Shown: positions 19,173 to 63,357 of the stretch, piece after piece
Position numbering within the stretch: position 1 is the stretch's first letter
How the letters are laid out: every line of letters starts with the position of its first letter
Assembly (NCBI GenBank): GCA_963772995.1
Contig: CAVYZQ010000013.1
Location: forward strand, 3,294-67,293
Length of the DNA: 64,000 nucleotides
Source: an uncultured Chloroflexia bacterium
GTDB taxonomy: Bacteria > Chloroflexota > Limnocylindria > Limnocylindrales > CSP1-4
Reading direction: 5' to 3'
Notes under the pieces: model-generated
The model's database searches: none
Told to the model about the DNA's origin: nothing
What the model saw: the letters and a program-made list of their open reading frames with translations, nothing else
Position numbers and translations under genes: made by a program

Positions 19173-19284
19173 AGAGGCTGCGATACGACCTGGGTGGCTG
19201 GTGTGAAACGCGCGTTCTGGCCGGCTGACGGGCGGGCGCGGGCGCAGCTACGATCCTGCTGGGCAGAGCCCCGGGACGGAACGG

Positions 19285-20650
19285 ATGGCCTGCCCGCGAG
19301 ATCGCGGGAGCAAACCGGATTCGCAGGGATCCGCGCCCCGCCAGGCAGACCTCTTCCGCGACACGACCGAGTTCTGCGCTCCGCTGGTCCGAGCGGACTC
19401 GATCCATGCCCTGCTCCACCGGGAGTGCCACGCACTGTTCCCCGACGAGCTGTTCAGCGATCTGTTCGCGCCAGGCGTCGGCCGGCGCTCGGTGCCGCCG
19501 CTCGTGGTCGCGGTGGTGATGGTCCTGCAACGGCTCGAGGGCTGTCTGACCGAGAGGCAGTCGAGCGCTTCACGTTCGACGCCCGCTGGAAGTACGCGGC
19601 GGGCGGCCTGCCGTTCGACCACCCGGGCTTCGCCCACACCGTGCTCGTCGACACGCGGGCCCGGCTCGCCCGCTCGGAGCGACCCGAACCGGATCTTCGA
19701 GCGCACGCTCGAGGTCGCACGGGCGGCGGGTCTCGTCGGGGTGCGGCGGGTGCTCGACTCCACCCGCTGTACGACGCGGTGGCCACGATGGACACGGTCA
19801 CGTTGGCGCGCTCCGCCATCCGCGGCGTGCTCGGGGCATCGGGTGATCGGGAGCCCGCGCTGCGCGCGGTCCTCCGCCGCGACGACGACTACCGCACCGG
19901 CGGCAAGCCTGCCGCCGACTGGGACGATGCGGCGGCCCGGGAGGCGCTCGTCGACGCGCTCGCGCGCGACGGTGAGGCCGTGCTCGGCGGGCTCGAGGGC
20001 GAGCCGCTGCCAGCGGGGCTGGCCGAGGCCGCCACCCTGCTCGCGACCGTGCTCGGCCAGGACCTCGAGCCAGGGCCTGATGGCCGGATCAGGATCGCCC
20101 GGCGGGTGGCCCCGGACCGGATCATCAGCACGGTCGACCCGGATGCCCGCCACGGCCACAAGACCGACGCCCGTGGGTTCGACGGGTACAAGGGCCACGT
20201 CGCGCTCGACCCCCGACGCCGAGCTCGTCACCGCGGCTGCCGTCACGCCGGGCAACGCGGGCGACGCCTCGGTCACGCTCGCGCTGCTCGAACCGACCTG
20301 GTCGAGACCGCGCCGGCCGAGCCACGTGGCGATCGACGGAGGGCAGGGTCACGCTGTTCAATCCCGCGGCGGTCACCGTCAGCCGGTACCGCTATCGGGC
20401 GAACCGCATCCCCGGCCCCTGGTCAAGCGCGTCGGCGGGATCGCCGGCCTGACCCGCCGGCATGGGCTCGTGGAAAGCCGGATGCGTGGAGACGCGCACG
20501 TCCGGTTCGGAGGGCGGGCCGGGGAAACGGGCCAGTTGAGAGGCTGGCACCGCGCCCCGGTCCGACCCTGCGAGTGGGCCAAGCGCCAGCTGGCCAAGCG
20601 CGGCGTCGGCTATGTCGGCCTCGATAACGGCTTTCGCGCGGTCGACGACC
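19285..20650 (+). mobile_element. IS5/IS1182-family DDE transposase remnant with at least 4 frameshifts (decayed IS)
   Basis: The InsH N-terminal (DUF772) motif is ...QADLFRDTTEF...LFAPGVGRRSVPPLVVAVVMVLQRLEG/LSDREAVERFTFDARWKYAAGGLPFDHPGF. The DDE region is ...DPDARHGHKTDARGFDGYKGHVALDP../ELVTAAAVTPGNAGDASV. The protein is pieced from frames 1 and 3 alternately. Confidence 0.6.
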
Positions 20651-21464: not shown

Positions 21465-22712
21465 ATGAACGACATTCCCGCCATCACACGCCCCTGTCGC
21501 AACTGCGGCGCCCTGCTCGAACGACTCTTCGTCGATCTCGGCATGTCGCCCCCGTGCGAGGACTTCCTGACCGAAGAGCGTCTCCACGCGCCCGAAACGT
21601 TCTACCCGCTCGACGTCCGGATCTGCGACCGGTGTCTGCTCGTGCAGCTGCCGACGTACGTGTCGGCCAGCAGCATCTTCACCGAGTATGCCTATTTCTC
21701 GTCGTACAGCGACAGCTGGGTCGAGCATGCCGGCCGACTCGTCGAGGATGCGATCAGGCGCCAGAACCTGGGCCCCCGGTCGAGCGTCGTGGAGATCGGG
21801 AGCAATGACGGCTACCTCCTTCAGCACGTCATCGCGAGCGGGATACCGGCCCTGGGCGTAGAGCCTGCCACCAACATCGCCGCGGCTGCGCGGGACAAGG
21901 GCATCCCCACCCTGAACGCGTTCTTCTCCGTGGAGGTAGCCCGCTCGATCGTTGACGCATCGGGGCCGGCTGATTACGTGGTCGCCAACAACGTCTTCGC
22001 GCACATCCCCGACCTGAATGACTTCACGGCCGGCCTGGCCACGCTGCTCCGCCCGGGCGGGTTGATGTCGATCGAAGTCGCCTATCTCGTCGAGCTGATC
22101 GCGCGTAACGAGTTCGACACCATCTACCACGAGCACTTCATGTATTACACGCTGCTGAGCGCGCAGTCGGTGTTGGCGCGTCATGGCCTTCGCCTGCTCG
22201 ACGTCGAGGAGCTCAGCACTCATGGCGGATCCATTCGAATGTGGGTGGTCCACGACGACGATGCGCGCATCACGACCGATGCCGTGGCGGCGGTCCTGGC
22301 GGCCGAGCGAGCCGCCGGCTTCGACCGGGCGGACGGCTACGCCGGGTTCGCTGATCGGGTGGCAACGACCAAACGCGAACTGCTGGCGTTCCTCATCGAC
22401 GAGCGACGCAAAGGCTCGACGATCGCCGGCTACGGCGCCCCCGGAAAAGCCAACACTCTGCTCAACTATTGCGGCATCCGGAGCGATCTGATCGAGTACC
22501 TCGTCGATCGGAATCCGTACAAGCATGGCCGCTTCACGCCCGGCACCCACATCCCGATCCTGCCGCCCGAACGCCTCGCCGAGGCCCGTCCCGACGTGAT
22601 CCTGATCCTGCCCTGGAACCTGCGCGACGAGATCTCCGAGCAGCTCTCGTACACGCGCTCATGGGGGGCTCGACTGGCGGTCCCGATCCCGAGGATCGAG
22701 GTCATCGGTTAA
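21465..22712 (+). CDS. SAM-dependent sugar C-methyltransferase (TylCIII/NovU-like, N-terminal zinc ribbon plus class I methyltransferase plus C-terminal C-methyltransferase domain)
   Basis: The intact 415-aa protein has CRNCGALL...CDRCLLVQL (zinc ribbon), VVEIGSNDGYLLQHV (SAM motif I) and a C-terminal IAGYGAPGKANTLLNYCGI. Confidence 0.8.
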   Translation: MNDIPAITRPCRNCGALLERLFVDLGMSPPCEDFLTEERLHAPETFYPLDVRICDRCLLVQLPTYVSASSIFTEYAYFSSYSDSWVEHAGRLVEDAIRRQNLGPRSSVVEIGSNDGYLLQHVIASGIPALGVEPATNIAAAARDKGIPTLNAFFSVEVARSIVDASGPADYVVANNVFAHIPDLNDFTAGLATLLRPGGLMSIEVAYLVELIARNEFDTIYHEHFMYYTLLSAQSVLARHGLRLLDVEELSTHGGSIRMWVVHDDDARITTDAVAAVLAAERAAGFDRADGYAGFADRVATTKRELLAFLIDERRKGSTIAGYGAPGKANTLLNYCGIRSDLIEYLVDRNPYKHGRFTPGTHIPILPPERLAEARPDVILILPWNLRDEISEQLSYTRSWGARLAVPIPRIEVIG

Positions 22713-26681: not shown

Positions 26682-29600
26682 GTGTGTTGTTGGGCGTCGT
26701 CGTGTTCGTCGCGCTCACTGATGGGATCGGCGCCGCTTGCGGGCGAGCCGGGGAACGCGGAGAACGCGAAGACGTGCCAGAAGAACGGCTGGATGGATGT
26801 GTTTACGCGATCGGGCGAGCCGTTCTCCAGTAATGGCGCATGTACCTCGTATGGGGCCCAAGGCGGGCAGTTGATCGTCAAGGCCGCGCTGGCGTGCCTC
26901 GATGACGGCTGGAAGGCGCTGGGGCCGACACCGGGCGAGCCCTTCGCGAGCGAGCAGGCCTGTGTCGACTTCGTCAACGGTGGTGGCACGCCTGTCGCTT
27001 CGGGCGGCGCGGATCTGGCGGTCGCGAAGGCGGTCAGCAGTTCGACGCCGAACGTGGGTGACACGGTCACGTTCACGGTCACGTTGAGCGACCTCGGCCC
27101 GGACGCGGCGACGGGGGTGCAGCTGAGCGACGTGCTGCCGGCTGGGCTTGCGTTCGTGTCAGCGACCCCGAGCCAGGGCAGCTACAGCTCGGCCAGCGGT
27201 GTGTGGACGGTGGGGACGGTGACCACGACCACGGCGCAGACGCTGCGGATCGAGGCGCAGGTGGTCTCGCCCGACGCGCAGACGAACACGGCGACGATCT
27301 CTCACTCCGACCAGTTCGACCCGGTCACCGGCAACAACAGCGCGAGCGCGACTGAGACGCCGGGCGGGGCGGATCTGGCGGTCGCGAAGGCGGTCAGCAG
27401 TTCGACGCCGAACGTGGGTGACACGGTCACGTTCACGGTCACGTTGAGCGACCTCGGCCCGGACGCGGCGACGGGGGTGCAGCTGAGCGACGTGCTGCCG
27501 GCTGGGCTTGCGTTCGTGTCAGCGACCCCGAGCCAGGGCAGCTACAGCTCGGCCAGCGGTGTGTGGACGGTGGGGACGGTGACCACGACCACGGCGCAGA
27601 CGCTGCGGATCGAGGCGCAGGTGGTCTCGCCCGACGCGCAGACGAACACGGCGACGATCTCTCACTCCGACCAGTTCGACCCGGTCACCAGCAACAACAG
27701 CGCGAGCGCGACTGAGACGCCGGGCGGGGCGGATCTGGCGGTCGCGAAGGCGGTCAGCGGTTCGACGCCGAACGTGGGTGACACGGTCACGTTCACGGTC
27801 ACGTTGAGCGACCTCGGCCCGGACGCGGCGACGGGGGTGCAGGTGAGCGACGTGCTGCCGGCTGGGCTTGCGTTCGTGTCAGCGACCCCGAGCCAGGGCA
27901 GCTACAGCTCGGCCAGCGGTGTGTGGACGGTGGGGACGGTGACCACGACCACGGCGCAGACGCTGCGGATCGAGGCGCAGGTGGTCTCGCCCGACGCGCA
28001 GACGAACACGGCGACGATCTCTCACTCCGACCAGTTCGACCCGGTCACCGGCAACAACAGCGCGAGCGCGACTGAGACGCCGCGGCGGGGCGGATCTGGC
28101 GGTCGCGAAGGCGGTCAGCAGTTCGACGCCGAACGTGGGTGACACGGTCACGTTCACGGTCACGTTGAGCGACCTCGGCCCGGACGCGGCGACGGGGGTG
28201 CAGCTGAGCGACGTGCTGCCGGCTGGGCTTGCGTTCGTGTCAGCGACCCCGAGCCAGGGCAGCTACAGCTCGGCCAGCGGTGTGTGGACGGTGGGGACGG
28301 TGACCACGACCACGGCGCAGACGCTGCGGATCGAGGCGCAGGTGGTCTCGCCCAACGCGCAGACGAACACGGCGACGATCTCTCACTCCGACCAGTTCGA
28401 CCCGGTCACCGGCAACAACAGCGCGAGCGCGACCGAGACGCCGAGCGGGGCGGATCTGGCGGTCGCGAAGGCGGTCAGCAGTTCGACGCCGAACGTGGGT
28501 GACACGGTCACGTTCACGGTCACGTTGAGCGACCTCGGCCCGGACGCGGCGACGGGGGTGCAGCTGAGCGACGTGCTGCCGGCTGGGCTTGCGTTCGTGT
28601 CAGCGACCCCGAGCCAGGGCAGCTACAGCTCGGCCAGCGGTGTGTGGACGGTGGGGACGGTGACCACGACCACGGCGCAGACGCTGCGGATCGAGGCGCA
28701 GGTGGTCTCGCCCGACGCGCAGACGAACACGGCGACGATCTCTCACTCCGACCAGTTCGACCCGGTCACCGGCAACAACAGCGCCGCAACCACCATCACC
28801 CCCGCCGCTCCTCCGACCGCGGGTCCCGGTCCGATCAAGGTTGGGCCGACGGGGAGGTATCTCGTCGACCAGAACGGTGCTCCGTTCCTGATCACCGGCG
28901 AATCGCCTCAGGCGCTGATCGGCGACTTGACGGAATCAGATGCCGCGCTCTTCTTCGCGAACCGGCGCGCGCACGGGTTCAACACGGTGTGGATCAACCT
29001 GCTGTGTAACAGCTACACCGGCTGCCAGGCGGACGGGAGTACCTGGGACGGCATTCCCCCGTTCATGACGCCCGGCGACTTCTCGACCCCGAACGAAGCG
29101 TACTTTGCACACGTCGACAGGATTCTTCGCCTGGCCGCGGATTACGGCTTCGTGGTGCTCCTCGATCCGGCCGAGACAGGAGGCTGGCTCAGCACGCTGG
29201 TGAGCAACGGCGTCGACAAGGATCGCGCCTACGGTCAGTACCTCGGCAGGCGCTATAAGGACTTTCCGAACATCATCTGGATGAGCGGCAACGACTACCA
29301 GGACTGGGGACCGACGAACGATCCATATGTCACCGCCGTCGCCCAAGGGATCCGTGACGTCGACCCGAGTCGTCTGCAGACGGTCGAGTTGAACTACCGC
29401 GTCAGCGGCTCACTCGACGACCCTGCTTGGGCGCCGCTCATCGACCTCAACGCGTCCTACACCTACGAGCCGACATATCAGCAGGTGCTCAGGGACTACA
29501 ACCGGAGCAATTTCCTGCCCACGTTCCTGGTCGAGGCGAGCTACGAATTCGAGCAGGACGGGCAGCGTCCAGCCGGCACAGCAGATGAGGCGGCAGGAGT

Positions 29601-30097
29601 ACTGGTCGCTCCTGAGCGGAGCGACCGGACAGCTCTACGGCAACCACTACACGTGGCAGTTCATCTGCCCGCAACGAGACGGCGCCGGAAACTGTGTCGG
29701 AGGCTGGAAGGACCAACTCGACACACCCGGTGCGACCCAGATGGCGTACCTGAACGCGCTATTCGAGTCGCGACCGTGGTACGCGCTCGTTCCGGACCAG
29801 GCGCACACATCGTAACGAACGGCTTCGGCACCTTCGGCGAGCGACGACTACGTCACGGCTGCGAGCACCCCCGACGGGACGCTCGCGATGGCGTACGTGC
29901 CGTCGAACCGGACCATCACTGTCGACATGAGCAGGTTCAGCGGCCCCGTCACGGCACGGTGGTACGACCCCACCGCCGGGACGTTCACGAGCATCTCCGG
30001 CACCCCGTTCCCCAACGTCGGGAGCCAGCAATTCAGTACACCAGGCGCGAATGCCGAAGGTACCGACGACTGGGTGCTCGTGCTCGAAGTGCACTAG
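26682..30097 (+). pseudogene. Large secreted protein with 5 tandem DUF11 repeats plus a C-terminal DUF4038/GH5-like glycoside-hydrolase-like domain, with at least 4 frame disruptions
   Basis: There are five repeats of GGADLAVAKAVSSSTPNVGDTVTFTVTLSDLGPDAATGVQLSDVLPAGLAFVSATPSQGSYSSASGVWTVGTV...NNSASATETP. A frameshift lies at the repeat 3/4 junction (about 28085). The C-terminal region (FLITGESPQALIG, FNTVWINLL, RRQEYWSLLSGATGQLYGNHYTWQF) is read across 3 frames. Confidence 0.6.
27001..28790 (+). repeat. Tandem array of 5 near-identical 360-bp units (each unit is one 120-aa DUF11 domain)
   Basis: The unit starts at 27001, 27361, 27721, 28081 and 28442. There are only a few SNPs between copies (for example agcagttcg/agcggttcg and cagctgagc/caggtgagc). 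Unit 4 is 361 bp. Confidence 0.9.
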
Positions 30098-30189
30098 GAG
30101 CGGACTCCCGTCGGCCTCGTGAGACGCGGGAGCGGACGCGCCAACATTAGAACGAATGTTCATGGTCGCGGCGAGAGGAGTCACACCAC

Positions 30190-41772: not shown

Positions 41773-42702
41773 ATGATCGACGTGCCCCCGAAGGTCACTA
41801 TCGGCATCCCCGTATACAACGGCGGCGCCTTCTTCACGGAGTGTCTCGAGGCCGTCTCCCGCCAGACATTCGGGGATCTTGAGGTGATCATCTCCGATAA
41901 TGCGTCGACCGACGGTACGGCCGATGTCGCCCGCTCATTCGTTGATCGGGATCCGCAATTCCACTATGTGCGGTTCGAGCAGAATCGGGGTGCCGCAGCC
42001 AACTGGAACAGGGTCGTGGAGCTCGCAAACGGTACCTATTTCAAGTGGCTGGCAGCAGACGACCTCATCGAACCGACGTACATCGAGCGGTGCGTCGCCG
42101 TCCTCGACGAGGAACCCGATGTCGTGCTCGTGACTCCACGGGTCCGGCTCATCGATCTCACCGGGAAGCCCCTCGAACGCACCCCTGGGACGGACCGTTA
42201 CGTGGCACCACACGGCGAAACGAAGAGCGCGCCCCGCGCTCCAGTGACCGGCCTCGCGTCACGGTCCGCCCTGCGTCGGTTCCGAAGTGTCGTCATGTTC
42301 GTGACCGACAGCGGGCTGGCGGCCTATGACATGAGTCTGATCCGTCTCGAGCCACTGCGATCGACGATGCTCGTGGAGCCGTACGTGGGTTCGGAGAAGA
42401 TCCTCCTGGCGCAACTGAGCCTCGTCGGGCGCTTCGTCCTGGTGCCCGAAGTGCTCTACTCGTGGCGGATCCATGCCGACCATATGGGGTCGAAGAGCCC
42501 GGCTGAGGCGACGCGAGGGCTCGATCCGACATGGACGGGTCGCTTCCCCATGATGGGCCCACGTCAGATCGTCGGCTACCTTCGTGCGATCCGGGTCGCG
42601 AAGGTGGATCCAGTCACGAAGCTAGGCTGCCTTGCCGTGATCATCGAGAAGATCCCGCGCGGCTTCTGGTCGCAATTCGGAAGGCGGATCGTCCGGCGAT
42701 GA
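41773..42702 (+). CDS. GT2-family glycosyltransferase
   Basis: It has IGIPVYNGGAFF...DLEVIISDNASTDGT (GT-A DxD-type fold). Its stop overlaps the next start (ATGA). Confidence 0.8.
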   Translation: MIDVPPKVTIGIPVYNGGAFFTECLEAVSRQTFGDLEVIISDNASTDGTADVARSFVDRDPQFHYVRFEQNRGAAANWNRVVELANGTYFKWLAADDLIEPTYIERCVAVLDEEPDVVLVTPRVRLIDLTGKPLERTPGTDRYVAPHGETKSAPRAPVTGLASRSALRRFRSVVMFVTDSGLAAYDMSLIRLEPLRSTMLVEPYVGSEKILLAQLSLVGRFVLVPEVLYSWRIHADHMGSKSPAEATRGLDPTWTGRFPMMGPRQIVGYLRAIRVAKVDPVTKLGCLAVIIEKIPRGFWSQFGRRIVRR

Positions 42703-49112: not shown

Positions 49113-50150
49113 TCACCCGACCGTCGGCTGCCTCCAGAAGAACTCGTCGTCCAACTGGCCGGTCCGCAGCAGGTAGGTGATCTGCTTGAGGCGCGTGTAC
49201 CCGCGGAAGGCGAAGTCCTCGGGCGACATGTCGATCGCGCGGAAGACCTCGAGCAGCTGTTGCGCCCCCGCTTTGACATCCCAGCGGGTCTTGAAGGTCG
49301 GCAGCGTTCGGTGGATCTTGCCGAAATCCGCGCGATAGTTCCGCTGGTCGCCGCCACTGTCGCCGAATACCGTCGAACAGCCCGGGAACGTCTCGGCGAT
49401 GATCTCGGCGATCTGGCGGACCTGATGGTTCTGGGCGTTGTCCCCAACGTTGAAGATCTCGTCATGGACCGTCTCACGCGGTGCGTCGAGCACGCAGGCG
49501 ATCGCCTGACTGATATCGAGGATGTGGACGAACGGCCGCCATGGGCGGCCATCGCTGGTCATCCGGATGACCCCCTCCGTCCAGGCGTGACCCGCCAGGT
49601 CATTGACGACGAGGTCGAAGCGCATCCGCGGCGATGCCCCGTATGCGGTGGCATTGCGCAGGAAGGTCGGGCTGAAGTCGTCCCGCGCGAGCTTGCTGAC
49701 GTCCCGCTCTACCAGGACCTTGCACTTCGCGTAGGTCGTCAGTGGATCGGTCGGTGATTCCTCCGTGCTGAACCCCTCGCCAGCCGCGCCGTAGACGCTG
49801 CATGACGACATGTAGACGAAGCGCCCAACTCCGGCATCCCGCGCCAGGCCGGCAAGCCGGACGCTTCCTTCGTGGTTGATGCGATAGGTCATCGCCGGGT
49901 CGATCTGCCCCAGCGGGTCGTTGGAAAGCTCAGCCAGGTGCACGACGGCGTCGTAACCGGCGACGTCGTCTGGAGTGATGCGTCGAACGTCCCGGTTGAC
50001 CCACGACGGCGCGCGCGCGACGGCGTTATGCAGCCAGCCGACTCGGTGGAAACCACTGTCGAGGCCGACGACCTCATGGCCTCGATCGATGAGATACGGG
50101 CCCAGGACAGAGCCGATGTAACCTTCGCTGCCGGTCAGAAGGATGCGCAT
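49113..50150 (-). CDS. NAD-dependent epimerase/dehydratase (SDR), likely nucleotide-sugar 4-ketoreductase/epimerase
   Basis: It has MRILLTGSEGYIGS (GxxGxxG), and YAKCK (YxxxK). Confidence 0.8.
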   Translation of the reverse strand: MRILLTGSEGYIGSVLGPYLIDRGHEVVGLDSGFHRVGWLHNAVARAPSWVNRDVRRITPDDVAGYDAVVHLAELSNDPLGQIDPAMTYRINHEGSVRLAGLARDAGVGRFVYMSSCSVYGAAGEGFSTEESPTDPLTTYAKCKVLVERDVSKLARDDFSPTFLRNATAYGASPRMRFDLVVNDLAGHAWTEGVIRMTSDGRPWRPFVHILDISQAIACVLDAPRETVHDEIFNVGDNAQNHQVRQIAEIIAETFPGCSTVFGDSGGDQRNYRADFGKIHRTLPTFKTRWDVKAGAQQLLEVFRAIDMSPEDFAFRGYTRLKQITYLLRTGQLDDEFFWRQPTVG

Positions 50151-50361
50151 GACACCTCGATCGCGTTCTTCGATTCATCAGGCTTCGTCGGGCGCGACCC
50201 GAGAAGCCGGAGCAGTGTACGTCGCCGGACCCGTCAGTTCAGTTGGGCCCGAACGGCTCGAGCGCCCGCTCGCCAGGACGCGGCTGACGCCCAGCAAGGC
50301 GGCCGAGGCCCGTGAGCAGGCATTCCTCGTGCGCCGTCGAGAGGATCGGCAGTCCCGGCCG

Positions 50362-51075
50362 TCATTTGATCATCGGGCGGATCGAGATCTCGGTCACCTC
50401 CGCCGTCCGCGGCAGAGAGATCGACGCGACGACGATCGCCGCCACGTCCTCCGGCTGGAGCAGGCGATCAGGGTGATACGGCTTGCCCTCCCAGTCATGG
50501 ATCATCGCCTGACGTGGCGTGGCCGTCCGGCCGGGGAAGACGGTCGTCACCCGGATCCCGTCCTGGTTCACCTCGTCCCGGAGCGAAGTCGACAGCGCGC
50601 GCAGACCGGCCTGCGTGGCCGCGTACTGCCCCGCATTCGCGCGTGCGACGAGGGCGGCACTCGAACTGACGAACACGATCTGGCCGCGATTCCGCCGCAG
50701 GCTCGGCAGGAGTCCCTTGGTCAGGGCGAACGGGGCCCGGAGGTTCGCCTGGTACTGGCGGTCGAAGTCGTCAACGCTGGCGTTGGCGATGTCGGCTCGT
50801 GCGATCGTCCCGGCGGAATGGACGAGCAGGTCCAGGCCCGAAGGACGAGACTCGATCTCCGCGATGAGCCGACCACGATCCTCGTCGTCGACGACGTCGA
50901 TGGTCCGTCCTTCGACCTGCGCTCCCAGCGCGCGTGCCTCGCGGACGGCGATGTCGAGCGGTTCCGCCCGTCGGGCCACCAGCAGAAGATTCATCCCCTG
51001 GCTGGCCAAGGCGAGCGCGATCGCCCGTCCGATCCCCTGGCTGCCTCCCACGACGAGGGCGAATGGGGCGGGCAT
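50362..51075 (-). CDS. Short-chain dehydrogenase/reductase (SDR family)
   Basis: It has ALVVGGSQGIGRAIA, NASV, and SAAL...YAATQAGL (S-Y-K triad region). Confidence 0.85.
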   Translation of the reverse strand: MPAPFALVVGGSQGIGRAIALALASQGMNLLLVARRAEPLDIAVREARALGAQVEGRTIDVVDDEDRGRLIAEIESRPSGLDLLVHSAGTIARADIANASVDDFDRQYQANLRAPFALTKGLLPSLRRNRGQIVFVSSSAALVARANAGQYAATQAGLRALSTSLRDEVNQDGIRVTTVFPGRTATPRQAMIHDWEGKPYHPDRLLQPEDVAAIVVASISLPRTAEVTEISIRPMIK

Positions 51076-51081
51076 CGGACC

Positions 51082-52330
51082 TCAGTCGAGGACCGTGATG
51101 GATGGCAATGGCACGACGAAACGGCAGCCCCAGGCACGGACGTGGGACATCTGATCGATGATCTCATCCATCAGGTCCCATGTGAGGATCAACAGGTAGT
51201 CCGGCCTGGCGTCGTCGACCTTCTTCGGGGCGAAGATCGGGATCCGCGAGCCCGGCAGATAGCGACCCTGTTTCGAAGGCGCCCGATCGACGACGAAGGC
51301 CACGTCCGCGACGCCGACGTCCGAGGAATTGAGCAAGGTGTTGCCTCTCGACGGCGCGCCGTACCCCGCGACCAGCCGGCCGTCACGCCGCCGATCGTCG
51401 AGGAACTCCCGCAATCCGGAGCGAGCTTCCTCGACGCGCTGAGCGAACGTCTCGAAGTCGGAAGCCCGGTGAGGCCCGCAGCCTCCTCCGCTGACAGGAT
51501 TTGCTTGACGGACCCGTCGTCACCGTTCGACTCGTCGACGTGGCCCGCAAACACGCGGAGGGAGCCTCCGTACGCCGTCGTCGCCATGGCGTCGTGTCGC
51601 TCGCAGCCCGGCGTTCGCAAGCATCCGCGTGAACGCTGACAAGGACAGGTACGACGCGTGACCGTGTCGGAAGCCGTCGTACTGCAGCCCGAGGATCACC
51701 GGCAAAAGATGGTCGAACTCGAATGCCGCGACTCCCCCCGGTGCGAGGAGTCGCTTGACACCCGCGAGGTACTCGGCCGGCCGCGGGTCGTGTGCGAGAT
51801 AGAACCCGTCGACGAACGAGTCCGCGACGTGGCCCTCCTCGACAAGCCGGTCGGCGAGCGCCGGGGTCAGTCGCTCCTCGATCGTCGGCACGCCCGCCTC
51901 GCGTGCCGCCTGGGCGAAGTGCGGCACGGGTTCCAGCAAGGTGCTCTGCGCGCCGGCGGACAGGAAGGCCCCATGGAGCCGATTCCCATGACTCGCGACC
52001 TCGATGATATTGAGGCCGGAATGCCTGTCGGATCGGTCGAGCACATCGCGCACGTAGTCGCGCACGTGCTCCTGCATCGTCGACGATACGGAGAAGGCGA
52101 GCCCGCCCGGCTCGTCGTCGGGCGGCACAGGGTCGCCCTCGAGCTGCACGAGCCAGCACGACGGGACAGGCCAGGATACGGAGCGGCAGACGGACGTCGG
52201 GCTGGGCGAGGTCGGCGGCGTCGATGAATCGCTCGGCAGGCGGTTGGGGCCCGAGATCGACCACGAGCGACAAGCCGGTCGCGCCGCACGATCGACAGGC
52301 GAGGCTCGTTCGTGTCGGCGGGCCGCTCGA
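51082..52330 (-). pseudogene. Second sugar C-methyltransferase paralog (TylCIII-like), at least 3 frame disruptions
   Basis: It is collinear with gene 21465..22712. The N-terminus is in ORF 51383..52273, the middle (NIIEVASHGNRLHGAFL, GGVAAFEFDHLLP) in ORF 51520..52359, and the C-terminus (VAGYGAPSRGNTLLNSSDV...FVVPLPSITVLD) in ORF 51082..51414. Confidence 0.7.
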
Positions 52331-52395
52331 TGACGCGCGCAGCGGTACGCGTCGGTCACCGACTCACGGCCTCCGCGCTGCCGAGCGGACGCCGA

Positions 52396-52887
52396 TCAAC
52401 GGTGCTTCACAGCCCAGTCATACGGGATCTCGTCACCGAACGGGTCGAGCCGTTCAGTGTCCGTCGGATCGTGCGGATGGGTCGCGCAGTTCGCGATCAT
52501 GGACACCTCGTCCATGCCCTTGAAGCCCGTCCAGATGCCAGGTGGGATCACCACCAGCGCATAGTCGTCGGGGCCAAGGAATTGCTCGAGGAGGGCGCCG
52601 CGGGTGGGCGAGTCCATCCGGTCGTCGTACAGGACGAGCTTGATCCGCCCCGCGATGCATGCGTAGTTCAGGGTCATCAGGGCGTGGCGGTGCCAGCCCT
52701 TGACGACGCCGCGATAGATCGTGCTGAAGTAGATCTCGCCGAACTCGACGAAGTGGGGGTCGGTCCGCCGGAGCATGTGGAGGATCGTACCCCGCTCGTC
52801 GGGGATGCGGCGAAGCGGAACGACCTGGACGCCGTCGATCGCGGCGTCGGGTGATGGATGGGCGACGGGCGACATGGCGGTCATCAT
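52396..52887 (-). CDS. RmlC-like cupin, NDP-4-keto-6-deoxyhexose 3,5-(or 5-)epimerase
   Basis: VVPLRRIPDERGTILHMLR...FGEIYFSTIYRGVVKGWHRH matches the dTDP-4-dehydrorhamnose epimerase / EvaD-like fold. Confidence 0.65.
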   Translation of the reverse strand: MMTAMSPVAHPSPDAAIDGVQVVPLRRIPDERGTILHMLRRTDPHFVEFGEIYFSTIYRGVVKGWHRHALMTLNYACIAGRIKLVLYDDRMDSPTRGALLEQFLGPDDYALVVIPPGIWTGFKGMDEVSMIANCATHPHDPTDTERLDPFGDEIPYDWAVKHR

Positions 52888-53089
52888 ACGGCCGGTCTGC
52901 GGTTGGATCGCGGTCGATGGCGGGCGACGTTCAGAAACCGGTGACGGGCGTCAACGAACGAGGCGCGTTCGGGTCGGCCATGGTGCACACTGCGCGGATG
53001 ACTGACATGAGGCGCACCTGTGCCGCGTCGCAGATGACGGCCCCGGCACGGGCTCGTCCGGATGGCACGCCGGGCCGAGCGGCGAGCCG

Positions 53090-53897
53090 ATGAAGGTCGT
53101 GATCTTCTGCGGCGGCCTCGGACTCCGGCTGCGTGATTACTCGGACGCGATCCCCAAGCCGATGGTCCCGATCGGCCTGCGCCCGATCCTGTGGCACAAC
53201 ATGCGCTACTACGCCCACTACGGCCACAAGGAATTCGTCCTCTGCCTGGGCTACAAGGCAGATGTCATCAAGGATTACTTCCTGCGCTACAACGAGGCGC
53301 TCTCGAACGACTTCATCCTGTCCGGCGATGGGCAGCTCGAGCTCCTCAGCACGGACATCCAGGACTGGCGCATCGCATTCGTGAACACGGGCCTGAACGC
53401 CCTGATCGGCCAGCGGTTGCGGGCCGTCCAGAACCATATCGGCACCGACGAGATGTTCCTGGCCAACTACGGCGACAACCTGACGGACGCTCCGCTCGAC
53501 AAGCTCATCGACGACTTCCGAGGGCGCGACAAGGTCGCCGCCTTCCTGTCCGTTGCGCCGACGCAGCTCGTTCCACGTCGTGTCGCTGCGCGACGACGGG
53601 GTCGTGACCGCGATCGAGGGCGTGACGGCGTCGGGGCTGCGCATCAACGGCGGGTTCTTCATCTTCCGCCGGGAGATCTTCGACTACATCCGCCCTGGCG
53701 AGGAATTGGTCGACGAACCGTTCCAGCGGTTGATCGCCGAGGGCCAGCTCATCGCCTACCCGCACGAAGGCTTCTGGGCGCCGATGGACACGCTCAAGGA
53801 CATGCAGAATCTCGAGGCCTTGTACGACGCGGGTCGGCCGCCGTGGGCCGTGTGGCAGCAGGACGAGGAGGACGCCACGCCGTCCGAGGGAGGGTAG
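53090..53897 (+). pseudogene. rfbF: Glucose-1-phosphate cytidylyltransferase (CDP-glucose pyrophosphorylase), frameshift at about 53560
   Basis: MKVVIFCGGLGLRLRDYSDAIPKPMVPIGLRPILWHNMRYYAHYGHKEFVLCLGYK is nearly diagnostic for RfbF. The C-terminal 110 aa are in ORF 53553..53897 (FHVVSL.DDG...YPHEGFWAPMDTLKD). Confidence 0.8.
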
Positions 53898-53909
53898 GGA
53901 CCGCTTCGC

Positions 53910-54565
53910 GTGCGCCGTTTATCCTTCACCGATCAGCCGACGAGCCGCCTCGACATCCTGGTGATCGGCGCGCACCCCGACGATATCGAGATCGGCTGCG
54001 GTGGGACGATGCTTCGGCTGGTCGCGGACGACCGTGTCGCGAGCGTCCGCTGGGTCGTCTGTAGTGGCGAGGGCGGCAGAGCCGACGAAGCGAGGAACGG
54101 GGCACTGGCGATCCTCGACAGTGTGCCTGATCGCAGAGATCGTCATCCTCGGCGGCCGCGACGGATTCTTCCCGCTGAGCGGCGTCGATCTCAAGCAGTC
54201 GTTCGAGGGCCTGAAGACCGGCGCGGAACCGGACCTGATCCTGACCCACCGCCGCGACGATCGGCACCAGGACCACCGGTTCGTCTCCGACCTGACGTGG
54301 CAGACCTTCCGAAGCTCGATGATCCTCGAGTACGAGATCCCAAAGTACGACGGAGACCTCGGGAATCCGAATGTGTTCGTCGAGATACCCGAGTCGCTCG
54401 TTCGTCGGAAGATCGAGATCCTCGAGACGACATTCCCGTCACAGCTCGACCGCCATTGGTACGACGCCGAGACGTTCCGGTCGATCCTGCGGCATCCGGG
54501 GCATCGAATCGCGCACGGGATCCGGCTACGCCGAGGGTTTCGAGGCTCGCAAGGTCGTCCTCTGA
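53910..54565 (+). pseudogene. PIG-L/LmbE-family N-acetylglucosaminyl deacetylase, 2 frame disruptions (about 54125 and about 54495)
   Basis: It has LVIGAHPDDIEIGCGGTML (frame 3), then ...ILTHRRDDRHQDHR... (frame 1), then C-terminal YAEGFEARK (frame 2). Confidence 0.6.
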
Positions 54566-54705
54566 CCGGATCCTGCCGTCCCACCGCATCGTATATCTGG
54601 GCGCCGTCGAGGTGCGACGCGCAATCCGCGCAGGAACGCCGGCACGACCTCGCCATCGAGGATCGGACTTCCGCCCGGACGGGACCGTCGAGTAATCTCC
54701 GCGCC

Positions 54706-55128
54706 ATGAGTATCGGCGGCGGGATGCGATGGGCCGTGTCGGCCGGCTGGCTGGTCATCGCCCTGCTGCTCGAGCGCATCCTCACCCTGGGAGGGATCAC
54801 CGACGTCACCGAGGTGTCCGAGAACCCTCCGGAGTTCGTGGCGACCGGCATCGGGCTGATCGTCGTCGCCGTCGCGATCGCGATCCTCGTGGCGGCCGAT
54901 GTGCGCCGATGGCCATCCCTCTCGATCGCGGCGAGTGCCGGCTACTTCGTGGTGGGCATCTGGCTGCGACTGGAGGAGAACGACGACTCGGGCCTGGCGA
55001 TCGCCATCATGGCTCTGCTCATCGCTACCCTCGCCGGAGGCGACCCTTGGCGCCCGACGGCGCGACGCGACGCGGTCGGCTCGGCCGCCGAACCCATGAG
55101 CGTCGGGCCTTTGCGGTCGGCGACCTGA
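54706..55128 (+). CDS. Small integral membrane protein (unknown)
   Basis: It is 140 aa with 4 hydrophobic segments. Confidence 0.4.
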   Translation: MSIGGGMRWAVSAGWLVIALLLERILTLGGITDVTEVSENPPEFVATGIGLIVVAVAIAILVAADVRRWPSLSIAASAGYFVVGIWLRLEENDDSGLAIAIMALLIATLAGGDPWRPTARRDAVGSAAEPMSVGPLRSAT

Positions 55129-61105: not shown

Positions 61106-63357
61106 CGGGCGGGCCCTCCAGGACGACCAGGGCGTCGACGGCGATGGGGCCCGACGCGGACGCGATCACCGGGTTGAGGTCGACCTCGAGGATGTCGGGC
61201 CGCTCGGTGCCGAGACGCCCGAGCGTCACGATCATCGAGGCAACAGCGCCGCGGTCCACCGCAGAACCACCCCGAACCCCACGCAGCAGCCGGCTGGCCC
61301 GAAGGTCGTCGAGCATGGCCTCGGCGGTCTCCGCATCGACCGGGGCGAGTCGGATGGCGACGTCGTCGAGGACCTCCGCGAGAGTCCCGCCGACGCCGAC
61401 CAGCACCGCGGGTCCGAACTGCGGATCACGACGAAGCCCGAGGATGAGCTCGACACCCGGTCGGGCCATCGGCTCGACCAGGAGGCCGCGAACCGCGAGC
61501 CGGCGGCGTCGCCCCGTCTCGAGCAGCGTCAGGGCGGCCGAATAGACCGCGTCGTCGCCGTGGAGGCCGAGCGCGACCGCGCCCATATCGGTCTTGTGGG
61601 TGAGCCCCTCGGCATCGAGCTTCAGCGCGACGCGATGGCCGATCCGGCGGGCCGCAGCGACCGCCGCTGCCGCGTCCGGGACGGAGAACGCCTCGGTGAC
61701 CGGCAGCCCGGCGGCCCCGAGGAAGGCGAGGCTGTCGCGCTCGGACAGCGACACCGAGCCGCGGGCCGGGGCCGGCGCGTGTCGCGCCTCGAGGCCGTAC
61801 GAGGTCCGATCGGCCGCGACTGCCGGCCAGCTCGCTCGCCACGGCCCGGCCGTGAGACGGCGCTCGTGGCGACGCTCCCAACGGGCGACCTCCGCGATCG
61901 CCCTGAACGCCTCCAGGGCTCCGCGCAGCATCGGCGTGCCGCCACCGGCCTCATCGAGGACCGCCTTCGTCTCGGGCGGTGGCTCGCCCGAGGTCAGCGA
62001 AACGTACACCGGCAGGATCGACGGTGCGCTCGCGCGTCGCTTCCAGCAACTGGCGGCTGACCTCGTTCGCCGCCTCCACCTCCGACGGCAGCGAGCGGTA
62101 CGGGAAGTCGTAGACCGCCGCGAGGACGTCGTACTCGCCAGACGCCGCCATGGCCTCGAAGCAGGCACGGTAGGCGGTCGCCGTGTCGGACGCACCCCAC
62201 GGGTCGAGCGGGTTGCCGACATAGCCCATCGTCGGCAGCGCGGCTGAGATCGCCGAGCGGGCGGACGGCGGGATCGGCGGGAGGTCGACGCCGGTGCGCG
62301 ACGCCATGTCGGCGATGAGCGACGCCTCGCCCGTCGAGACGGTCACGACGCCCGTTCGGCCTCGTCCGACCCGGCGGCCAGTGCGTCGCGCACCCTCGAC
62401 GAGCTCGGCCGTCTCGAGGAGCTCGTCGAGGTCACGGCAGCGGATGACGCCTGCCGCATCGAGCGCCGCATCGGTCACCCGGGCCTCGCCCGCGAGCGAC
62501 CCCGTGTGGGCGACGGCGGCGGCCTGCGCCTGGTCGCTCCGGCCGACCTTGACGGCGATGATCGGCTTCCCGAGCTCCAGCGCGCGATCGGCGAGGGCGA
62601 GGAAGCGTTCGGGCCGTTTGAACCCCTCGACGAACAGGATGACCGACGACGTCTCCGGGTCGTCGAGGCAGTAGGCGAGGTAGTCGCAGACGTCGAGGAC
62701 GACCTCCGAGCCGCAGCTGACGATCCGCGAGAACCCGATGCGATTCCCCGAGTGGACGAACGCGTCGGTGACCGATCCGGACTGGGCGATCCCGGCGACG
62801 CCGCCTCGAGGCAGGTACGGCGACACGTCGCCGATGTACGTCGCGCTGTTCGAGGTCAGGTCGATGACGCCCATGCAGTTGGGGCCGACGAGAGCGAGGC
62901 CGTGCTCGCGGCCGATCCGGCCGACCTCGGCCTGCATGGCCGCGGCCGCCTCGCCACCCTCGACCACTCCGCCGCCCGGGATGATGACGGCCGGCACTCC
63001 AGCCGCGGCCGCCGCCTCGGTGACCGATGCCGCGCGCAGCGGATTGAGGGCCACGATCACGACGTCCGGTCGTTCGGGGAGGTCGTCGAGCGAGGGATAG
63101 CACGGCTGCCCGTGGAGCTCCTCGTAGTTGGGGTTGACGAAGTGGCATCGGGTGGCGCTGCCCATCGCCCGGAGGTTGTCGCGGACGGTCCCGGCGATCC
63201 ATGAGCGCGGCGAGGCGCCCACCACGGCGATGCTCGTCGGCGCGAACAGCGGCCTCAGGTCGATGGTGCCGCCGGTCTGGGTGACCGACCGGCGCCCCCG
63301 GTGCCGTTGTCGCTGCGAGTGCGGTCGTCGTAGGGGACGTGGTCGCCGAGGCGTCGC
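61092..63357 (-). pseudogene. NDP-forming acyl-CoA synthetase (CoA-binding plus succinyl-CoA-synthetase-like plus ATP-grasp domains), frameshift near 61960-62220; start uncertain
   Basis: The alpha part is in ORF 61951..63936 (TIDLRPLFAPTSIAVVGASPRS..., LVGPNCMGVI, AQSGS). The ATP-grasp beta part is in ORF 61092..62222. Confidence 0.7.

What the first reader, a model, noticed from the sequence alone, without database searches (positions are those of the whole stretch)
49113..53897. CDP-glucose (RfbF) pathway combined with SAM C-methyltransferase, RmlC-like epimerase and two reductases: possible C-branched/methylated CDP-deoxysugar route
RfbF (53090) makes CDP-glucose. It is clustered with a TylCIII-like C-methyltransferase (51082, frameshifted; an intact paralog lies at 21465), an RmlC-like 3,5-epimerase (52396), an SDR (50362) and an NAD-dependent epimerase/dehydratase (49113). 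In characterised pathways, TylCIII-type C-methylation operates on dTDP-sugars (mycarose and similar), whereas CDP-linked branched sugars such as yersiniose use a ThDP enzyme. A CDP-linked SAM C-methylation pathway would be uncommon. No obvious CDP-glucose 4,6-dehydratase (RfbG) was recognised, so the 49113 gene may fill that role or the pathway may be incomplete.
Basis: inference. Interest (0 to 1): 0.55.

Follow-up and report, generated by a model that had tools for sequence, protein, structure and literature searches.

The report
Conserved CDP-sugar C-methylation cassette without a dehydratase
This is an intact, widely conserved set of sugar-nucleotide genes inside a polysaccharide locus that probably makes a methyl-branched sugar by an untested route, in which a simple oxidising enzyme takes the place of the usual water-removing one; the "frameshifts" are assembly errors.

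Summary
The genes are real and sit at the stated coordinates. Undoing the five indels in the C-methyltransferase restores a 424-codon ORF. A short-read contig matches it 327/331 without gaps, and two JGI contigs carry all six genes intact. The frameshifts are therefore assembly errors.

The 49113 product is not RfbG (TIGR02622: 19 bits against a cutoff of 278). It lacks the dehydratase acid/base pair. Its closest solved relative is Cj1427, a C4-dehydrogenase that makes a 4-keto sugar without 6-deoxygenation and reduces alpha-ketoglutarate to L-2-hydroxyglutarate.

Across 61 related loci, this SDR and true RfbG never co-occur. C-methyltransferases pair with the SDR and never with RfbG. L-2-hydroxyglutarate oxidase is embedded in several of these operons.

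The best model is CDP-hexose, then the 4-keto form, then C-methylation and epimerisation, then reduction, giving a C-methyl non-deoxy hexose for a polysaccharide.

CDP-linked C-methylation is not new in itself: Synechocystis and metagenomes carry rfbF-rfbG-rfbC plus C-methyltransferase clusters, and CDP-vinelose is a chemical precedent. The dehydrogenase-initiated variant, the universal PIG-L partner and the RHGH active-site variant are uncharacterised.

The parts
49113..50150 (-). Extended SDR ('SDR345'), predicted NDP-hexose C4-dehydrogenase related to Cj1427. Intact ORF of 345 aa.
   Evidence: PF01370, E 1.4e-42. TIGR02622 (RfbG) gives 19 bits against a cutoff of 278; galE gives 86 against 262. 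Best PDB hit is 6VO6/6VO8: E 1e-27 with the single sequence, and 148.9 bits against 97 for the next hit with a family profile. The top four Foldseek hits are Cj1427. S115-S116-C117-S118 and Y140/K144 are invariant. 89% identical to the L001 ortholog with no indels.
50362..51075 (-). Classical SDR of 237 aa, a candidate 4-ketoreductase with an atypical catalytic motif (Y-A-A-T-Q in place of YxxxK).
   Evidence: PF00106, E 1.3e-44. Orthologs occupy the same position in L084-L087, L005, L032 and the P0264 contig. The K-to-Q change is conserved in L084-L086, is M in L005 and is K in L032. P0287 fuses a C-methyltransferase to the N-terminal part of this SDR.
51082..52359 (-). SAM-dependent sugar C-methyltransferase of the 'RHGH' subfamily of the TylC3/MtmC/TcaB9 family. 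It is 424 aa once five single-base assembly indels are undone: +1 at about 52346, 52330, 52161 and 51593, and -1 at about 51456.
   Evidence: PF08421 and PF08484 on the fragments. Full-length match to 4RV9 (E 7e-53), TcaB9 and KijD1. The indels are private to the window. The corrected ORF is uninterrupted and colinear with L085. P0252 is 327/331 identical without gaps across two of the corrected sites. The FRHGH motif replaces IYHEH.
52396..52887 (-). Small RmlC-like cupin of 163 aa, a predicted epimerase or isomerase acting on the 4-keto intermediate.
   Evidence: PF00908, E 1.2e-10. TIGR01221 gives 27.6 bits against a cutoff of 155.75. Best PDB hit is 3EJK 'dTDP sugar isomerase' (E 1e-35). 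RmlC and the C. jejuni heptose epimerases reach only E 1e-6 to 1e-3. 88% identical to the L001 ortholog.
52888..53089 (.). Divergent intergenic region between the cupin operon (-) and the nucleotidyltransferase operon (+). It presumably holds the promoters.
   Evidence: Read from the gene coordinates. The consensus scan found no convincing sigma-70 or terminator sites here. The same divergent layout occurs in L001 and L085-L087.
53090..53897 (+). RfbF-like sugar-1-phosphate (cytidylyl)transferase, 268 aa after removing one +1 indel at about 53564.
   Evidence: TIGR02623 gives 223 bits over 1-255/255, below the cutoff of 300.25. 1TZF, E 3.7e-55. 88% identical to the intact L001 ortholog. The indel is private to the window. 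The whole subfamily lacks the E-K-P motif of 1TZF.
53910..54565 (+). PIG-L/LmbE-family metal-dependent deacetylase-like protein, 217 aa after removing +1 indels at about 54134 and 54493. It is coupled to the nucleotidyltransferase.
   Evidence: PF02585 on the intact orthologs. The window fragment scores E 2.7e-4. BshB1 model, 49 bits. AHPDD and HQDH motifs can be read directly in the sequence. It pairs with the nucleotidyltransferase in 61 of 61 loci.
54670..55128 (+). Small hydrophobic protein downstream of PIG-L. It may belong to the operon. Function unknown.
   Evidence: 51% identical to the gene in the equivalent position of L001 (12650-13036). No Pfam hit.
21465..22712 (+). Second, intact C-methyltransferase with the canonical YHEH motif, at the other end of the same polysaccharide locus.
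   Evidence: 33% identical to the cassette C-methyltransferase. 50-63% identical to the C-methyltransferases that sit next to the nucleotidyltransferase/PIG-L pair in other phyla. YHEH motif.

Best explanation
The region is a functional six-gene nucleotide-sugar modification cassette inside a large polysaccharide (EPS or O-antigen-like) locus of a probable Chloroflexota genome.

Proposed route:
1. The RfbF-like transferase activates a hexose-1-phosphate, most likely glucose-1-P with CTP (inferred from homology).
2. The 49113 SDR, a relative of C. jejuni Cj1427, oxidises C4 to give a CDP-4-keto-hexose without removing the 6-hydroxyl (inferred).
3. The C-methyltransferase uses SAM to methylate a carbon next to the keto group, C3 or C5 (the family is shown; the position is inferred).
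4. The cupin epimerises or isomerises the intermediate (inferred).
5. C4 is reduced again, either by the atypical classical SDR or by the NADH retained on the 49113 enzyme (speculative).

The product would be a C-methyl-branched hexose that keeps its 6-hydroxyl, which the neighbouring glycosyltransferases would add to the polymer. The role of PIG-L is unknown. The frameshifts are assembly errors, not gene decay.
For: Gene identities.

The genes are intact in close relatives, and the indels are private to the window:
- L085 and L086, which are JGI contigs, carry all six genes whole.
- All eight indels are absent from the four relatives aligned.
- The corrected C-methyltransferase is an open 424-codon ORF.
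- Short-read protein P0252 matches it 327/331 without gaps across two of the corrected sites.
- The same +1 indel type occurs in unrelated acyl-CoA metabolism genes at 62026 and 63776.
- Another contig, L084, has its own different +1 insertions.

The 49113 SDR resembles a dehydrogenase rather than a dehydratase:
- TIGR02622 gives 19 bits against a cutoff of 278.
- A family profile scores Cj1427 (6VO6) at 148.9 bits and the next structure at 97.
- Cj1427 is the top Foldseek hit.
- S-S-C-S is invariant where dehydratases carry T-D-E.
- Cj1427 makes a 4-keto sugar without dehydration, using alpha-ketoglutarate and producing L-2-hydroxyglutarate (PMC10680097).

Genomic logic across 61 loci:
- The SDR (28 loci) and true RfbG (17 loci) never co-occur (Fisher p = 4e-6).
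- C-methyltransferases occur with the SDR in 15 of 23 cases and never with RfbG (p = 7e-5).
- An L-2-hydroxyglutarate oxidase equivalog (510-596 bits against a cutoff of 299) lies in or beside 9 of the 61 surveyed loci plus L087. Seven of the nine carry the SDR and none carries RfbG.

The surrounding 21-55 kb encodes a priming transferase, glycosyltransferases, Wzy and a chain-length regulator.
Against: - No biochemistry exists for any member of this cassette.
- The fold search cannot separate Cj1427 from 4-epimerases; their E-values are close.
- The window itself has no L-2-hydroxyglutarate oxidase.
- The association of that oxidase with the SDR is only marginal statistically (p = 0.07), and the loci are not phylogenetically independent.
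- The nucleotidyltransferase scores below the RfbF equivalog cutoff and lacks the E-K-P motif, so both the sugar and the nucleotide are uncertain.
- The candidate reductase lacks the catalytic lysine.
- The C-methyltransferase has Arg and Gly in place of the Tyr and Glu of the canonical Y-H-E-H motif, so its chemistry may differ.
- The universal PIG-L partner has no place in the model.
Confidence: 0.5

Rival explanations
1. RfbF makes CDP-glucose, the 49113 SDR acts as a non-orthologous CDP-glucose 4,6-dehydratase, and the cassette makes a C-methylated CDP-6-deoxyhexose similar to vinelose.
For: The SDR and RfbG are mutually exclusive, so they could act at the same step. Canonical RfbF-RfbG-C-MT-RmlC-reductase clusters exist (L088; Synechocystis). 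CDP-vinelose is a chemical precedent (my own knowledge).
Against: TIGR02622 gives 19 bits against 278, and the dTDP-glucose dehydratase model gives 43 against 365. The T-D-E acid/base residues are replaced by an invariant S-C-S. The nearest relative is a non-dehydrating dehydrogenase. An L-2-hydroxyglutarate oxidase in the operons has no role in a dehydratase pathway.
Confidence: 0.1
2. The nucleotidyltransferase activates an N-acetylhexosamine-1-phosphate or another non-glucose sugar, and PIG-L deacetylates the nucleotide sugar. The cassette would then make a C-methylated amino sugar.
For: The nucleotidyltransferase and PIG-L are paired in 61 of 61 loci and closely spaced. The subfamily scores below the RfbF cutoff and has lost the E-K-P sugar-phosphate motif. 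PIG-L keeps its metal-binding motifs. Characterised PIG-L enzymes act on GlcNAc-containing substrates (my own knowledge).
Against: In 17 of 61 loci the same pair sits beside a high-scoring true CDP-glucose 4,6-dehydratase (482 bits). No aminotransferase or acetyltransferase is conserved in the cassette.
Confidence: 0.15
3. The 49113 SDR is an ordinary NDP-hexose 4-epimerase, and the C-methyltransferase acts on a keto sugar made elsewhere. The gene clustering would reflect shared use in one polymer, not one pathway.
For: galE is the best NCBIfam hit at 86 bits. Many 4-epimerases give similar fold scores.
Against: All NCBIfam hits are far below their cutoffs. The family profile favours Cj1427 by about 50 bits. 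The SDR is strictly exclusive with RfbG and is preferred by C-methyltransferases. No other enzyme that could generate a keto group is conserved in the minimal cassettes.
Confidence: 0.1
4. The cassette is a decaying, non-functional remnant in which the C-methyltransferase, RfbF and PIG-L are pseudogenes.
For: There are eight frame-breaking indels in about 5 kb.
Against: Every indel is a single base, seven of the eight are insertions, and all are private to the window. The corrected ORFs contain no stop codons. A 99%-identical short-read protein is in frame. Codon bias is kept on both sides of each shift. The same kind of lesion occurs in unrelated genes.
Confidence: 0.03

Closest known systems
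C. jejuni GDP-heptose modification pathway: Cj1427 C4-dehydrogenase, Cj1430 C3/C5-epimerase and Cj1428 C4-reductase
   Same: The closest solved relative of the 49113 SDR is Cj1427. Both systems combine an SDR oxidant, a small RmlC-like cupin and a reductase, and both have a nucleotide sugar that keeps its 6-OH. Related operons carry an L-2-hydroxyglutarate oxidase, which fits Cj1427's by-product.
   Different: Identity is only about 26-33%. The activating enzyme here is RfbF-like (CDP-hexose) rather than HddC (GDP-heptose). A C-methyltransferase and a PIG-L protein are added. The alpha-ketoglutarate dependence is untested.
dTDP-sugar C-3 methyltransferases TylC3, MtmC (4RV9), TcaB9 (3NDI) and KijD1 (5T64)
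   Same: The match covers the full length and all three domains: the zinc domain with four Cys, the SAM domain and the C-terminal domain.
   Different: Those enzymes act on dTDP-4-keto-(2)6-deoxy sugars made by RmlA and RmlB. Here there are no dTDP genes and no dehydratase. The Y-H-E-H motif is R-H-G-H in a conserved subfamily, seen in 57 of the top 120 clusters.
Canonical CDP-glucose pathways with a C-methyltransferase: Synechocystis slr0983 (rfbF), slr0984 (rfbG), slr0985 (rfbC) and slr1610 ('putative C-3 methyltransferase'); metagenomic locus L088; CDP-vinelose of Azotobacter vinelandii
   Same: A cytidylyltransferase is clustered with a TylC3-type C-methyltransferase and an RmlC-type cupin in a polysaccharide locus. 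CDP-6-deoxy-3-C-methyl-2-O-methyl-hexose (vinelose) shows that CDP-linked C-methyl sugars exist (my own knowledge; not in the searched library).
   Different: Those clusters contain a true RfbG and an above-cutoff RfbF (393 and 403 bits in L088). The window has neither. It has the Cj1427-like SDR and PIG-L instead.
Anabaena PCC 7120 HEP island, alr2825-alr2831
   Same: The annotation lists a glucose-1-P cytidylyltransferase, a hypothetical protein, an epimerase/dehydratase, rfbC and an NAD(P) oxidoreductase in a row. This resembles the nucleotidyltransferase / PIG-L / SDR / RmlC / DRL-SAF pattern seen in 12 of 61 loci.
   Different: This was not checked by sequence and is only a lead. That pattern has a DRL-SAF oxidoreductase in place of a C-methyltransferase.

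Membership tests
Glucose-1-phosphate cytidylyltransferase RfbF (TIGR02623) | Full-length homology to characterised RfbF, including the N-terminal GGxGxRL / PKP motif | tested here: met
   1TZF, E 3.7e-55 over residues 2-256. 'GGLGLRL...PKPMVPIG' can be read in the sequence.
Glucose-1-phosphate cytidylyltransferase RfbF (TIGR02623) | Score at or above the curated equivalog cutoff | tested here: not met
   223.2 bits against a cutoff of 300.25. A true RfbF from L088 scores 392.9.
Glucose-1-phosphate cytidylyltransferase RfbF (TIGR02623) | E-K-P sugar-phosphate binding motif. It is present in 1TZF; its role is from my knowledge of RmlA and RfbF structures. | tested here: not met
   The window has E-G-V. 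The position varies across the whole subfamily.
Glucose-1-phosphate cytidylyltransferase RfbF (TIGR02623) | CTP plus glucose-1-P activity | not testable with these tools
   Indirect support only: orthologs lie beside a true RfbG in 17 of 61 loci.
CDP-glucose 4,6-dehydratase RfbG (TIGR02622), tested on the 49113 product | Equivalog score and the dehydratase acid/base residues after the catalytic Ser/Thr | tested here: not met
   19.2 bits against 278.45. Invariant S-S-C-S in place of T-D-E.
Cj1427-type NDP-sugar C4-dehydrogenase | Closest solved homolog, plus the Ser-Tyr-Lys triad without dehydratase residues | tested here: met
   6VO6 at 148.9 bits against 97 for the next structure. Foldseek ranks 1-4. 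Y140 and K144 are invariant. The segment FGxSPRMRxDLxVND is shared.
Cj1427-type NDP-sugar C4-dehydrogenase | Tightly bound NADH recycled by alpha-ketoglutarate to L-2-hydroxyglutarate | not testable with these tools
   Indirect support only: an L-2-hydroxyglutarate oxidase sits in or beside the operon in L001, L023, L032, L071, L074 and L087. None is in the window.
TylC3/TcaB9-type NDP-sugar C-methyltransferase | Three-domain architecture (PF08421 zinc domain, SAM-binding fold, PF08484) | tested here: met
   CxxC...CPxC is present in the corrected sequence.
TylC3/TcaB9-type NDP-sugar C-methyltransferase | Y-H-E-H active-site motif. The His as catalytic base and the Glu and Tyr near the sugar are from my knowledge of TcaB9 studies. 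| tested here: inconclusive
   Both His residues are kept. Tyr is replaced by Arg and Glu by Gly, and this is conserved in a subfamily.
dTDP-4-dehydrorhamnose 3,5-epimerase RmlC (TIGR01221) | Equivalog score | tested here: not met
   27.6 bits against 155.75. There is only a domain-level PF00908 hit. The closest structure is the uncharacterised 3EJK.
Classical SDR ketoreductase | TGxxxGxG cofactor motif and the catalytic YxxxK | tested here: not met
   The cofactor motif is present ('GGSQGIG'). Lys is replaced by Gln (Y-A-A-T-Q), and this is conserved in the closest orthologs.
PIG-L/LmbE deacetylase | PF02585 domain with AHPDD and HxDH metal-binding motifs | tested here: met
   The intact orthologs carry PF02585. 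The motifs can be read in the window sequence. The substrate is unknown.

The most novel reading that the evidence does not exclude
A widespread CDP-hexose modification module, found across many phyla, in which a Cj1427-like 'ping-pong' C4-dehydrogenase replaces the 4,6-dehydratase. C-methyl-branched or epimerised hexoses would then be made without 6-deoxygenation. In the minimal cassettes (SDR, cupin, C-methyltransferase, nucleotidyltransferase, PIG-L, and no other redox enzyme) the NADH held on the dehydrogenase would re-reduce the modified 4-keto sugar. That would be a hydrogen-borrowing relay between separate enzymes. Other lineages would instead use alpha-ketoglutarate plus an operon-encoded L-2-hydroxyglutarate oxidase. 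The invariably paired PIG-L enzyme would have a new, nucleotide-sugar-linked function.
Probability: 0.3. Interest if true: 0.75.

Novelty: new variant of a known kind. Interest (0 to 1): 0.5.

Why it matters
Branched-chain sugars are known almost only as dTDP-linked deoxysugars of antibiotics. The one characterised non-dehydrating C4-dehydrogenase, Cj1427, is known only from Campylobacter GDP-heptose pathways.

If the model is right, soil and freshwater bacteria of at least ten phyla use a CDP-based, dehydratase-free route to C-methyl hexoses for their surface polysaccharides. These phyla include Chloroflexota, Acidobacteriota, Actinomycetota, Cyanobacteria, Nitrospirota and Verrucomicrobiota. 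It would also give L-2-hydroxyglutarate oxidase a defined partner pathway.

The model yields a cheap in vitro test with four to six soluble enzymes and points to a new enzyme-substrate pair for PIG-L.

In practical terms, the finding warns that the 'pseudogenes' in this window are single-base assembly errors.

Tried and rejected
- An exact look-up of the 49113 protein found nothing.
- Literature searches found no paper that characterises such a pathway. The terms tried were glucose-1-phosphate cytidylyltransferase plus C-methyltransferase; CDP-glucose plus C-methyltransferase; C4-dehydrogenase plus L-2-hydroxyglutarate; vinelose; and 3-C-methyl plus CDP. The two primary Cj1427 papers are not held.
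- Cluster membership gave no organism names.
- NCBIfam has no model for the C-methyltransferase or for the DUF4910 protein.
- The promoter and terminator scan gave nothing usable.
- The fold search ranks Cj1427 first but does not discriminate among SDRs.
- I considered that the RHGH motif marks CDP-specific C-methyltransferases, and rejected the idea. The canonical CDP cluster L088 and most C-methyltransferases linked to the nucleotidyltransferase use YHEH.
- A more distant RHGH locus, L090, was cut by the contig end and was uninformative.
- I followed up the Rfam group II intron hit. No reverse transcriptase ORF was found, only a weak DUF772 transposase-like match.
- Real pseudogenisation was rejected.

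Full report
**1. What is in the sequence**

The window is about 65-73% G+C. Codon-position GC plots show coding sequence that changes frame without intervening stops at several places between 51 and 59 kb.

On the minus strand lie four genes:
- an extended SDR at 49113-50150 (PF01370, E 1.4e-42);
- a classical SDR at 50362-51075 (PF00106, E 1.3e-44);
- a C-methyltransferase split over several frames between 51082 and about 52360 (PF08484, E 3.8e-38; PF08421);
- a small cupin at 52396-52887 (PF00908, E 1.2e-10).

Diverging from them on the plus strand lie two more:
- an RfbF-like nucleotidyltransferase at 53090-53897, itself split by one frameshift;
- a PIG-L/LmbE-family gene at 53910-54565, starting 13 nt after the nucleotidyltransferase stop codon and split twice.

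The reconstructed C-methyltransferase aligns end to end with MtmC (4RV9, E 7e-53), TcaB9 and KijD1. The reconstructed nucleotidyltransferase aligns with Salmonella RfbF (1TZF, E 3.7e-55).

**2. The frameshifts are assembly errors**

The nearest relatives are metagenomic contigs. L001/L004 is a MAG named 'uncultured Chloroflexia bacterium', and its proteins are 88-90% identical to the window's. It carries the cassette intact. Two JGI contigs, L085 and L086, have SDRs 93% and 95% identical to the window's. They have exactly the window's gene order with every gene whole: PIG-L 217 aa, nucleotidyltransferase 297-300 aa, cupin 162-201 aa, C-methyltransferase 424 aa, adh_short SDR 237 aa, and extended SDR 346-353 aa.

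A five-way DNA alignment shows that each of the window's eight frame-breaking indels is a single base and is absent from all four relatives. The indels are +1 at about 54493, 54134, 53564, 52346, 52330, 52161 and 51593, and -1 at about 51456. L084, a 91%-identical ENA metagenome contig, has its own different private +1 insertions. The same +1 type occurs in unrelated acyl-CoA metabolism genes at 62026 and 63776.

Undoing the five indels in the C-methyltransferase gives one open 424-codon frame from 52359 to 51082, colinear with L085. A protein from a short-read assembly (P0252) is 327/331 identical to it without gaps across residues 94-424, a stretch that spans two of the corrected sites. I therefore treat the cassette as functional.

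**3. The 49113 product is not RfbG and most resembles Cj1427**

On NCBIfam it reaches no cutoff. The RfbG model gives 19 bits against 278, and galE gives 86 against 262. Its best solved homolog is 6VO6/6VO8 (E 1e-27). A profile built from 26 family members scores that entry at 148.9 bits against 97 for the next structure, and the two share the segment FGxSPRMRxDLxVND.

[quoted passage not shown] Other SDR folds follow closely, so the fold result alone is not decisive.

The family has an invariant S115-S116-C117-S118 and Y140...K144. In that position 4,6-dehydratases carry T-D-E, according to established knowledge of RmlB and DesIV. The residues needed for dehydration are therefore missing.

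[quoted passage not shown] Its tightly bound NADH is re-oxidised by alpha-ketoglutarate, giving L-2-hydroxyglutarate. A cupin C3/C5-epimerase (Cj1430) and a C4-reductase (Cj1428) then follow (PMC10680097).

**4. Comparative genomics supports that reading**

A scan of GTDB species representatives with the nucleotidyltransferase returned 80 loci from many phyla: Chloroflexota, Acidobacteriota, Actinomycetota, Cyanobacteria, Nitrospirota, Myxococcota, Gemmatimonadota, Bacteroidota, Planctomycetota and Verrucomicrobiota. The family is very large, with more than 8000 hits at E below 1e-20.

Among the 61 loci with at least 6 kb on both sides:
- The nucleotidyltransferase is paired with PIG-L in 61 of 61.
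- The Cj1427-like SDR (28 loci) and a true CDP-glucose 4,6-dehydratase (17 loci; 482 bits against 278) never co-occur (Fisher p = 4e-6).
- C-methyltransferases (23 loci) and a DRL/SAF-domain oxidoreductase (35 loci) are nearly exclusive, with one overlap (p = 1e-11).
- C-methyltransferases accompany the SDR in 15 of 23 loci and never accompany RfbG (p = 7e-5).

An L-2-hydroxyglutarate oxidase equivalog (NF008726, 510-596 bits against a cutoff of 299) lies within nine of these 61 loci. Seven of the nine carry the SDR and none carries RfbG. The oxidase is embedded in the operon in L001, L023, L032, L071 and L074. It also sits between the classical SDR and the extended SDR in L087, whose C-methyltransferase is 95% identical to the window's.

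For a gene that is normally single-copy at most, this is a strong enrichment, and it matches the Cj1427 by-product. The window itself, like L085 and L086, has only a 210-bp gap at that position and no such oxidase.

**5. Features that do not fit a textbook pathway**

- The nucleotidyltransferase covers the RfbF model end to end but scores 223 bits against a cutoff of 300. The whole subfamily has lost the E-K-P motif of 1TZF. A true RfbF from locus L088 scores 393 bits.
- The cassette C-methyltransferase belongs to a conserved subfamily with F-R-H-G-H where MtmC, TcaB9-type enzymes and most C-methyltransferases linked to this nucleotidyltransferase have I-Y-H-E-H. This subfamily makes up 57 of the top 120 database clusters, down to about 41% identity.
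- The window's second C-methyltransferase, at 21465-22712, is of the canonical type. It is 50-63% identical to the C-methyltransferases that sit next to the nucleotidyltransferase/PIG-L pair in other phyla.
- The classical SDR has Y-A-A-T-Q in place of YxxxK, and this is conserved in the closest orthologs. One database protein fuses a C-methyltransferase to the start of this SDR.
- The cupin is closest to the uncharacterised 3EJK (E 1e-35) and only distantly related to RmlC and the Campylobacter heptose epimerases.
- PIG-L keeps its AHPDD and HxDH motifs, but no step of the model needs it.

**6. Context**

The window from about 21 to 55 kb is one large polysaccharide locus. It contains:
- the second C-methyltransferase;
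- a Bac_transf priming transferase at 23143;
- a UDP-glucose dehydrogenase and a UXS-like decarboxylase at about 24.3-26.6 kb;
- DUF11 surface proteins and an apiosidase-like hydrolase;
- a WecG-family transferase and a P-loop chain-length-regulator-like protein;
- two beta-helix proteins;
- GT4 and GT2 transferases;
- Wzy_C at 42531;
- an FkbM methyltransferase.

The left flank (43.6-49 kb) is syntenic with L001. Only one sugar-1-phosphate nucleotidyltransferase motif and one 'STSEVYG' SDR (the UXS-like gene) occur in the whole window, so there is no RmlA, RmlB or RfbG.

**7. Model**

Shown: the family membership of each protein, the intactness of the cassette in relatives, its conservation and its co-occurrence rules.

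Inferred:
- CTP plus hexose-1-P gives a CDP-hexose.
- The Cj1427-like SDR oxidises C4 without dehydration.
- SAM-dependent C-methylation occurs next to the keto group.
- The cupin epimerises or isomerises the intermediate.
- C4 is reduced again, and the sugar is transferred into the polymer.

Speculative: cyanobacterial and other minimal cassettes contain no second redox enzyme, and the window's classical SDR lacks the catalytic Lys. The NADH retained on the dehydrogenase may therefore itself re-reduce the methylated 4-keto sugar. Lineages with an L-2-hydroxyglutarate oxidase and a separate reductase would instead use alpha-ketoglutarate, as Cj1427 does.

**8. Comparison with what is known, and novelty**

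Synechocystis has rfbF-rfbG-rfbC followed by a 'putative C-3 methyltransferase', slr1610. Metagenomic locus L088 has above-cutoff RfbF, RfbG and RmlC together with a C-methyltransferase, a reductase and an O-methyltransferase. CDP-vinelose from Azotobacter vinelandii is an old chemical precedent; this rests on my own knowledge, and the term is absent from the searchable library.

Three things appear uncharacterised:
- the dehydratase-free variant, with a Cj1427-like enzyme acting on what is probably a CDP-hexose;
- its link to L-2-hydroxyglutarate oxidase;
- the invariable PIG-L partner, together with the RHGH methyltransferase subfamily.

I found no paper describing any of them. I rate this a new variant of a known kind. 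It is of moderate interest and directly testable with a handful of soluble enzymes.

Noticed in passing
window 23000-64000 (for example 62026, 63776, 24.3-25.6 kb, 29556/29579, 55.1-59.9 kb): Many genes outside the finding are also broken by frame changes. The two sites compared with a homolog (62026 and 63776) are single-base insertions. The first 17 kb or so looks clean. The density is uneven, with about a dozen frame changes in the 55-59 kb surface-protein gene.
   Followed up: partly
L001 6748-7983; L023 8551-9723; L032 7456-8655; L071 1657-2823; L074 5535-6701; L087 11998-13224: An L-2-hydroxyglutarate oxidase equivalog is embedded in sugar-nucleotide operons next to the Cj1427-like SDR, in several phyla. 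I found no literature on this association.
   Followed up: yes
All 61 surveyed loci; window 53090-54565: The RfbF-like nucleotidyltransferase is always paired with a PIG-L/LmbE protein. This holds whether the locus has RfbG, the Cj1427-like SDR, a C-methyltransferase or a DRL/SAF oxidoreductase. The transferase subfamily has lost the E-K-P motif. The role of PIG-L is unexplained.
   Followed up: partly
L039 10402-11610; L045 11459-12682; L053 3999-5207: A third C-methyltransferase-like type has I-F-H-Q-N in place of Y-H-E-H, so the second His is lost. It sits in tandem with a canonical C-methyltransferase and may be non-catalytic.
   Followed up: no
window 50362-51075 and orthologs in L084-L086: The classical SDR of the cassette has Gln in place of the catalytic Lys (YAATQ). 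The position is Met in L005 and Lys in L032. The change is conserved rather than a sign of decay.
   Followed up: partly
window 20473-20571 (+) and 19194-20627 (+): There is an Rfam group II intron (domain V/VI) hit at 47 bits against a gathering score of 40. It lies in a stretch of poor coding quality (17.6-21.4 kb) with a weak DUF772 transposase-like ORF. No reverse transcriptase was found. This is probably mobile-element debris at the edge of the polysaccharide locus.
   Followed up: partly
L088 5389-10692: A compact canonical cluster holds an O-methyltransferase (CmcI-like), RfbF, RfbG, a YHEH C-methyltransferase, RmlC and an SDR reductase. This is exactly the enzyme set expected for a CDP-6-deoxy-3-C-methyl-O-methyl-L-hexose of the vinelose type.
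   Followed up: partly
35 of 61 loci, for example L075 8632-9975: A 447-aa oxidoreductase with DRL_cat, NAD_binding_3 and SAF domains alternates with the C-methyltransferase beside the same nucleotidyltransferase/PIG-L pair. It is often accompanied by RmlC and a Glf-like flavoprotein. It may be the 4-ketoreductase of a sister pathway.
   Followed up: no
window 26682-30150 (+): Two DUF11-repeat surface proteins lie here. The second is fused to an apiosidase-like/GH5-like catalytic domain. Both are inside the polysaccharide locus.
   Followed up: no
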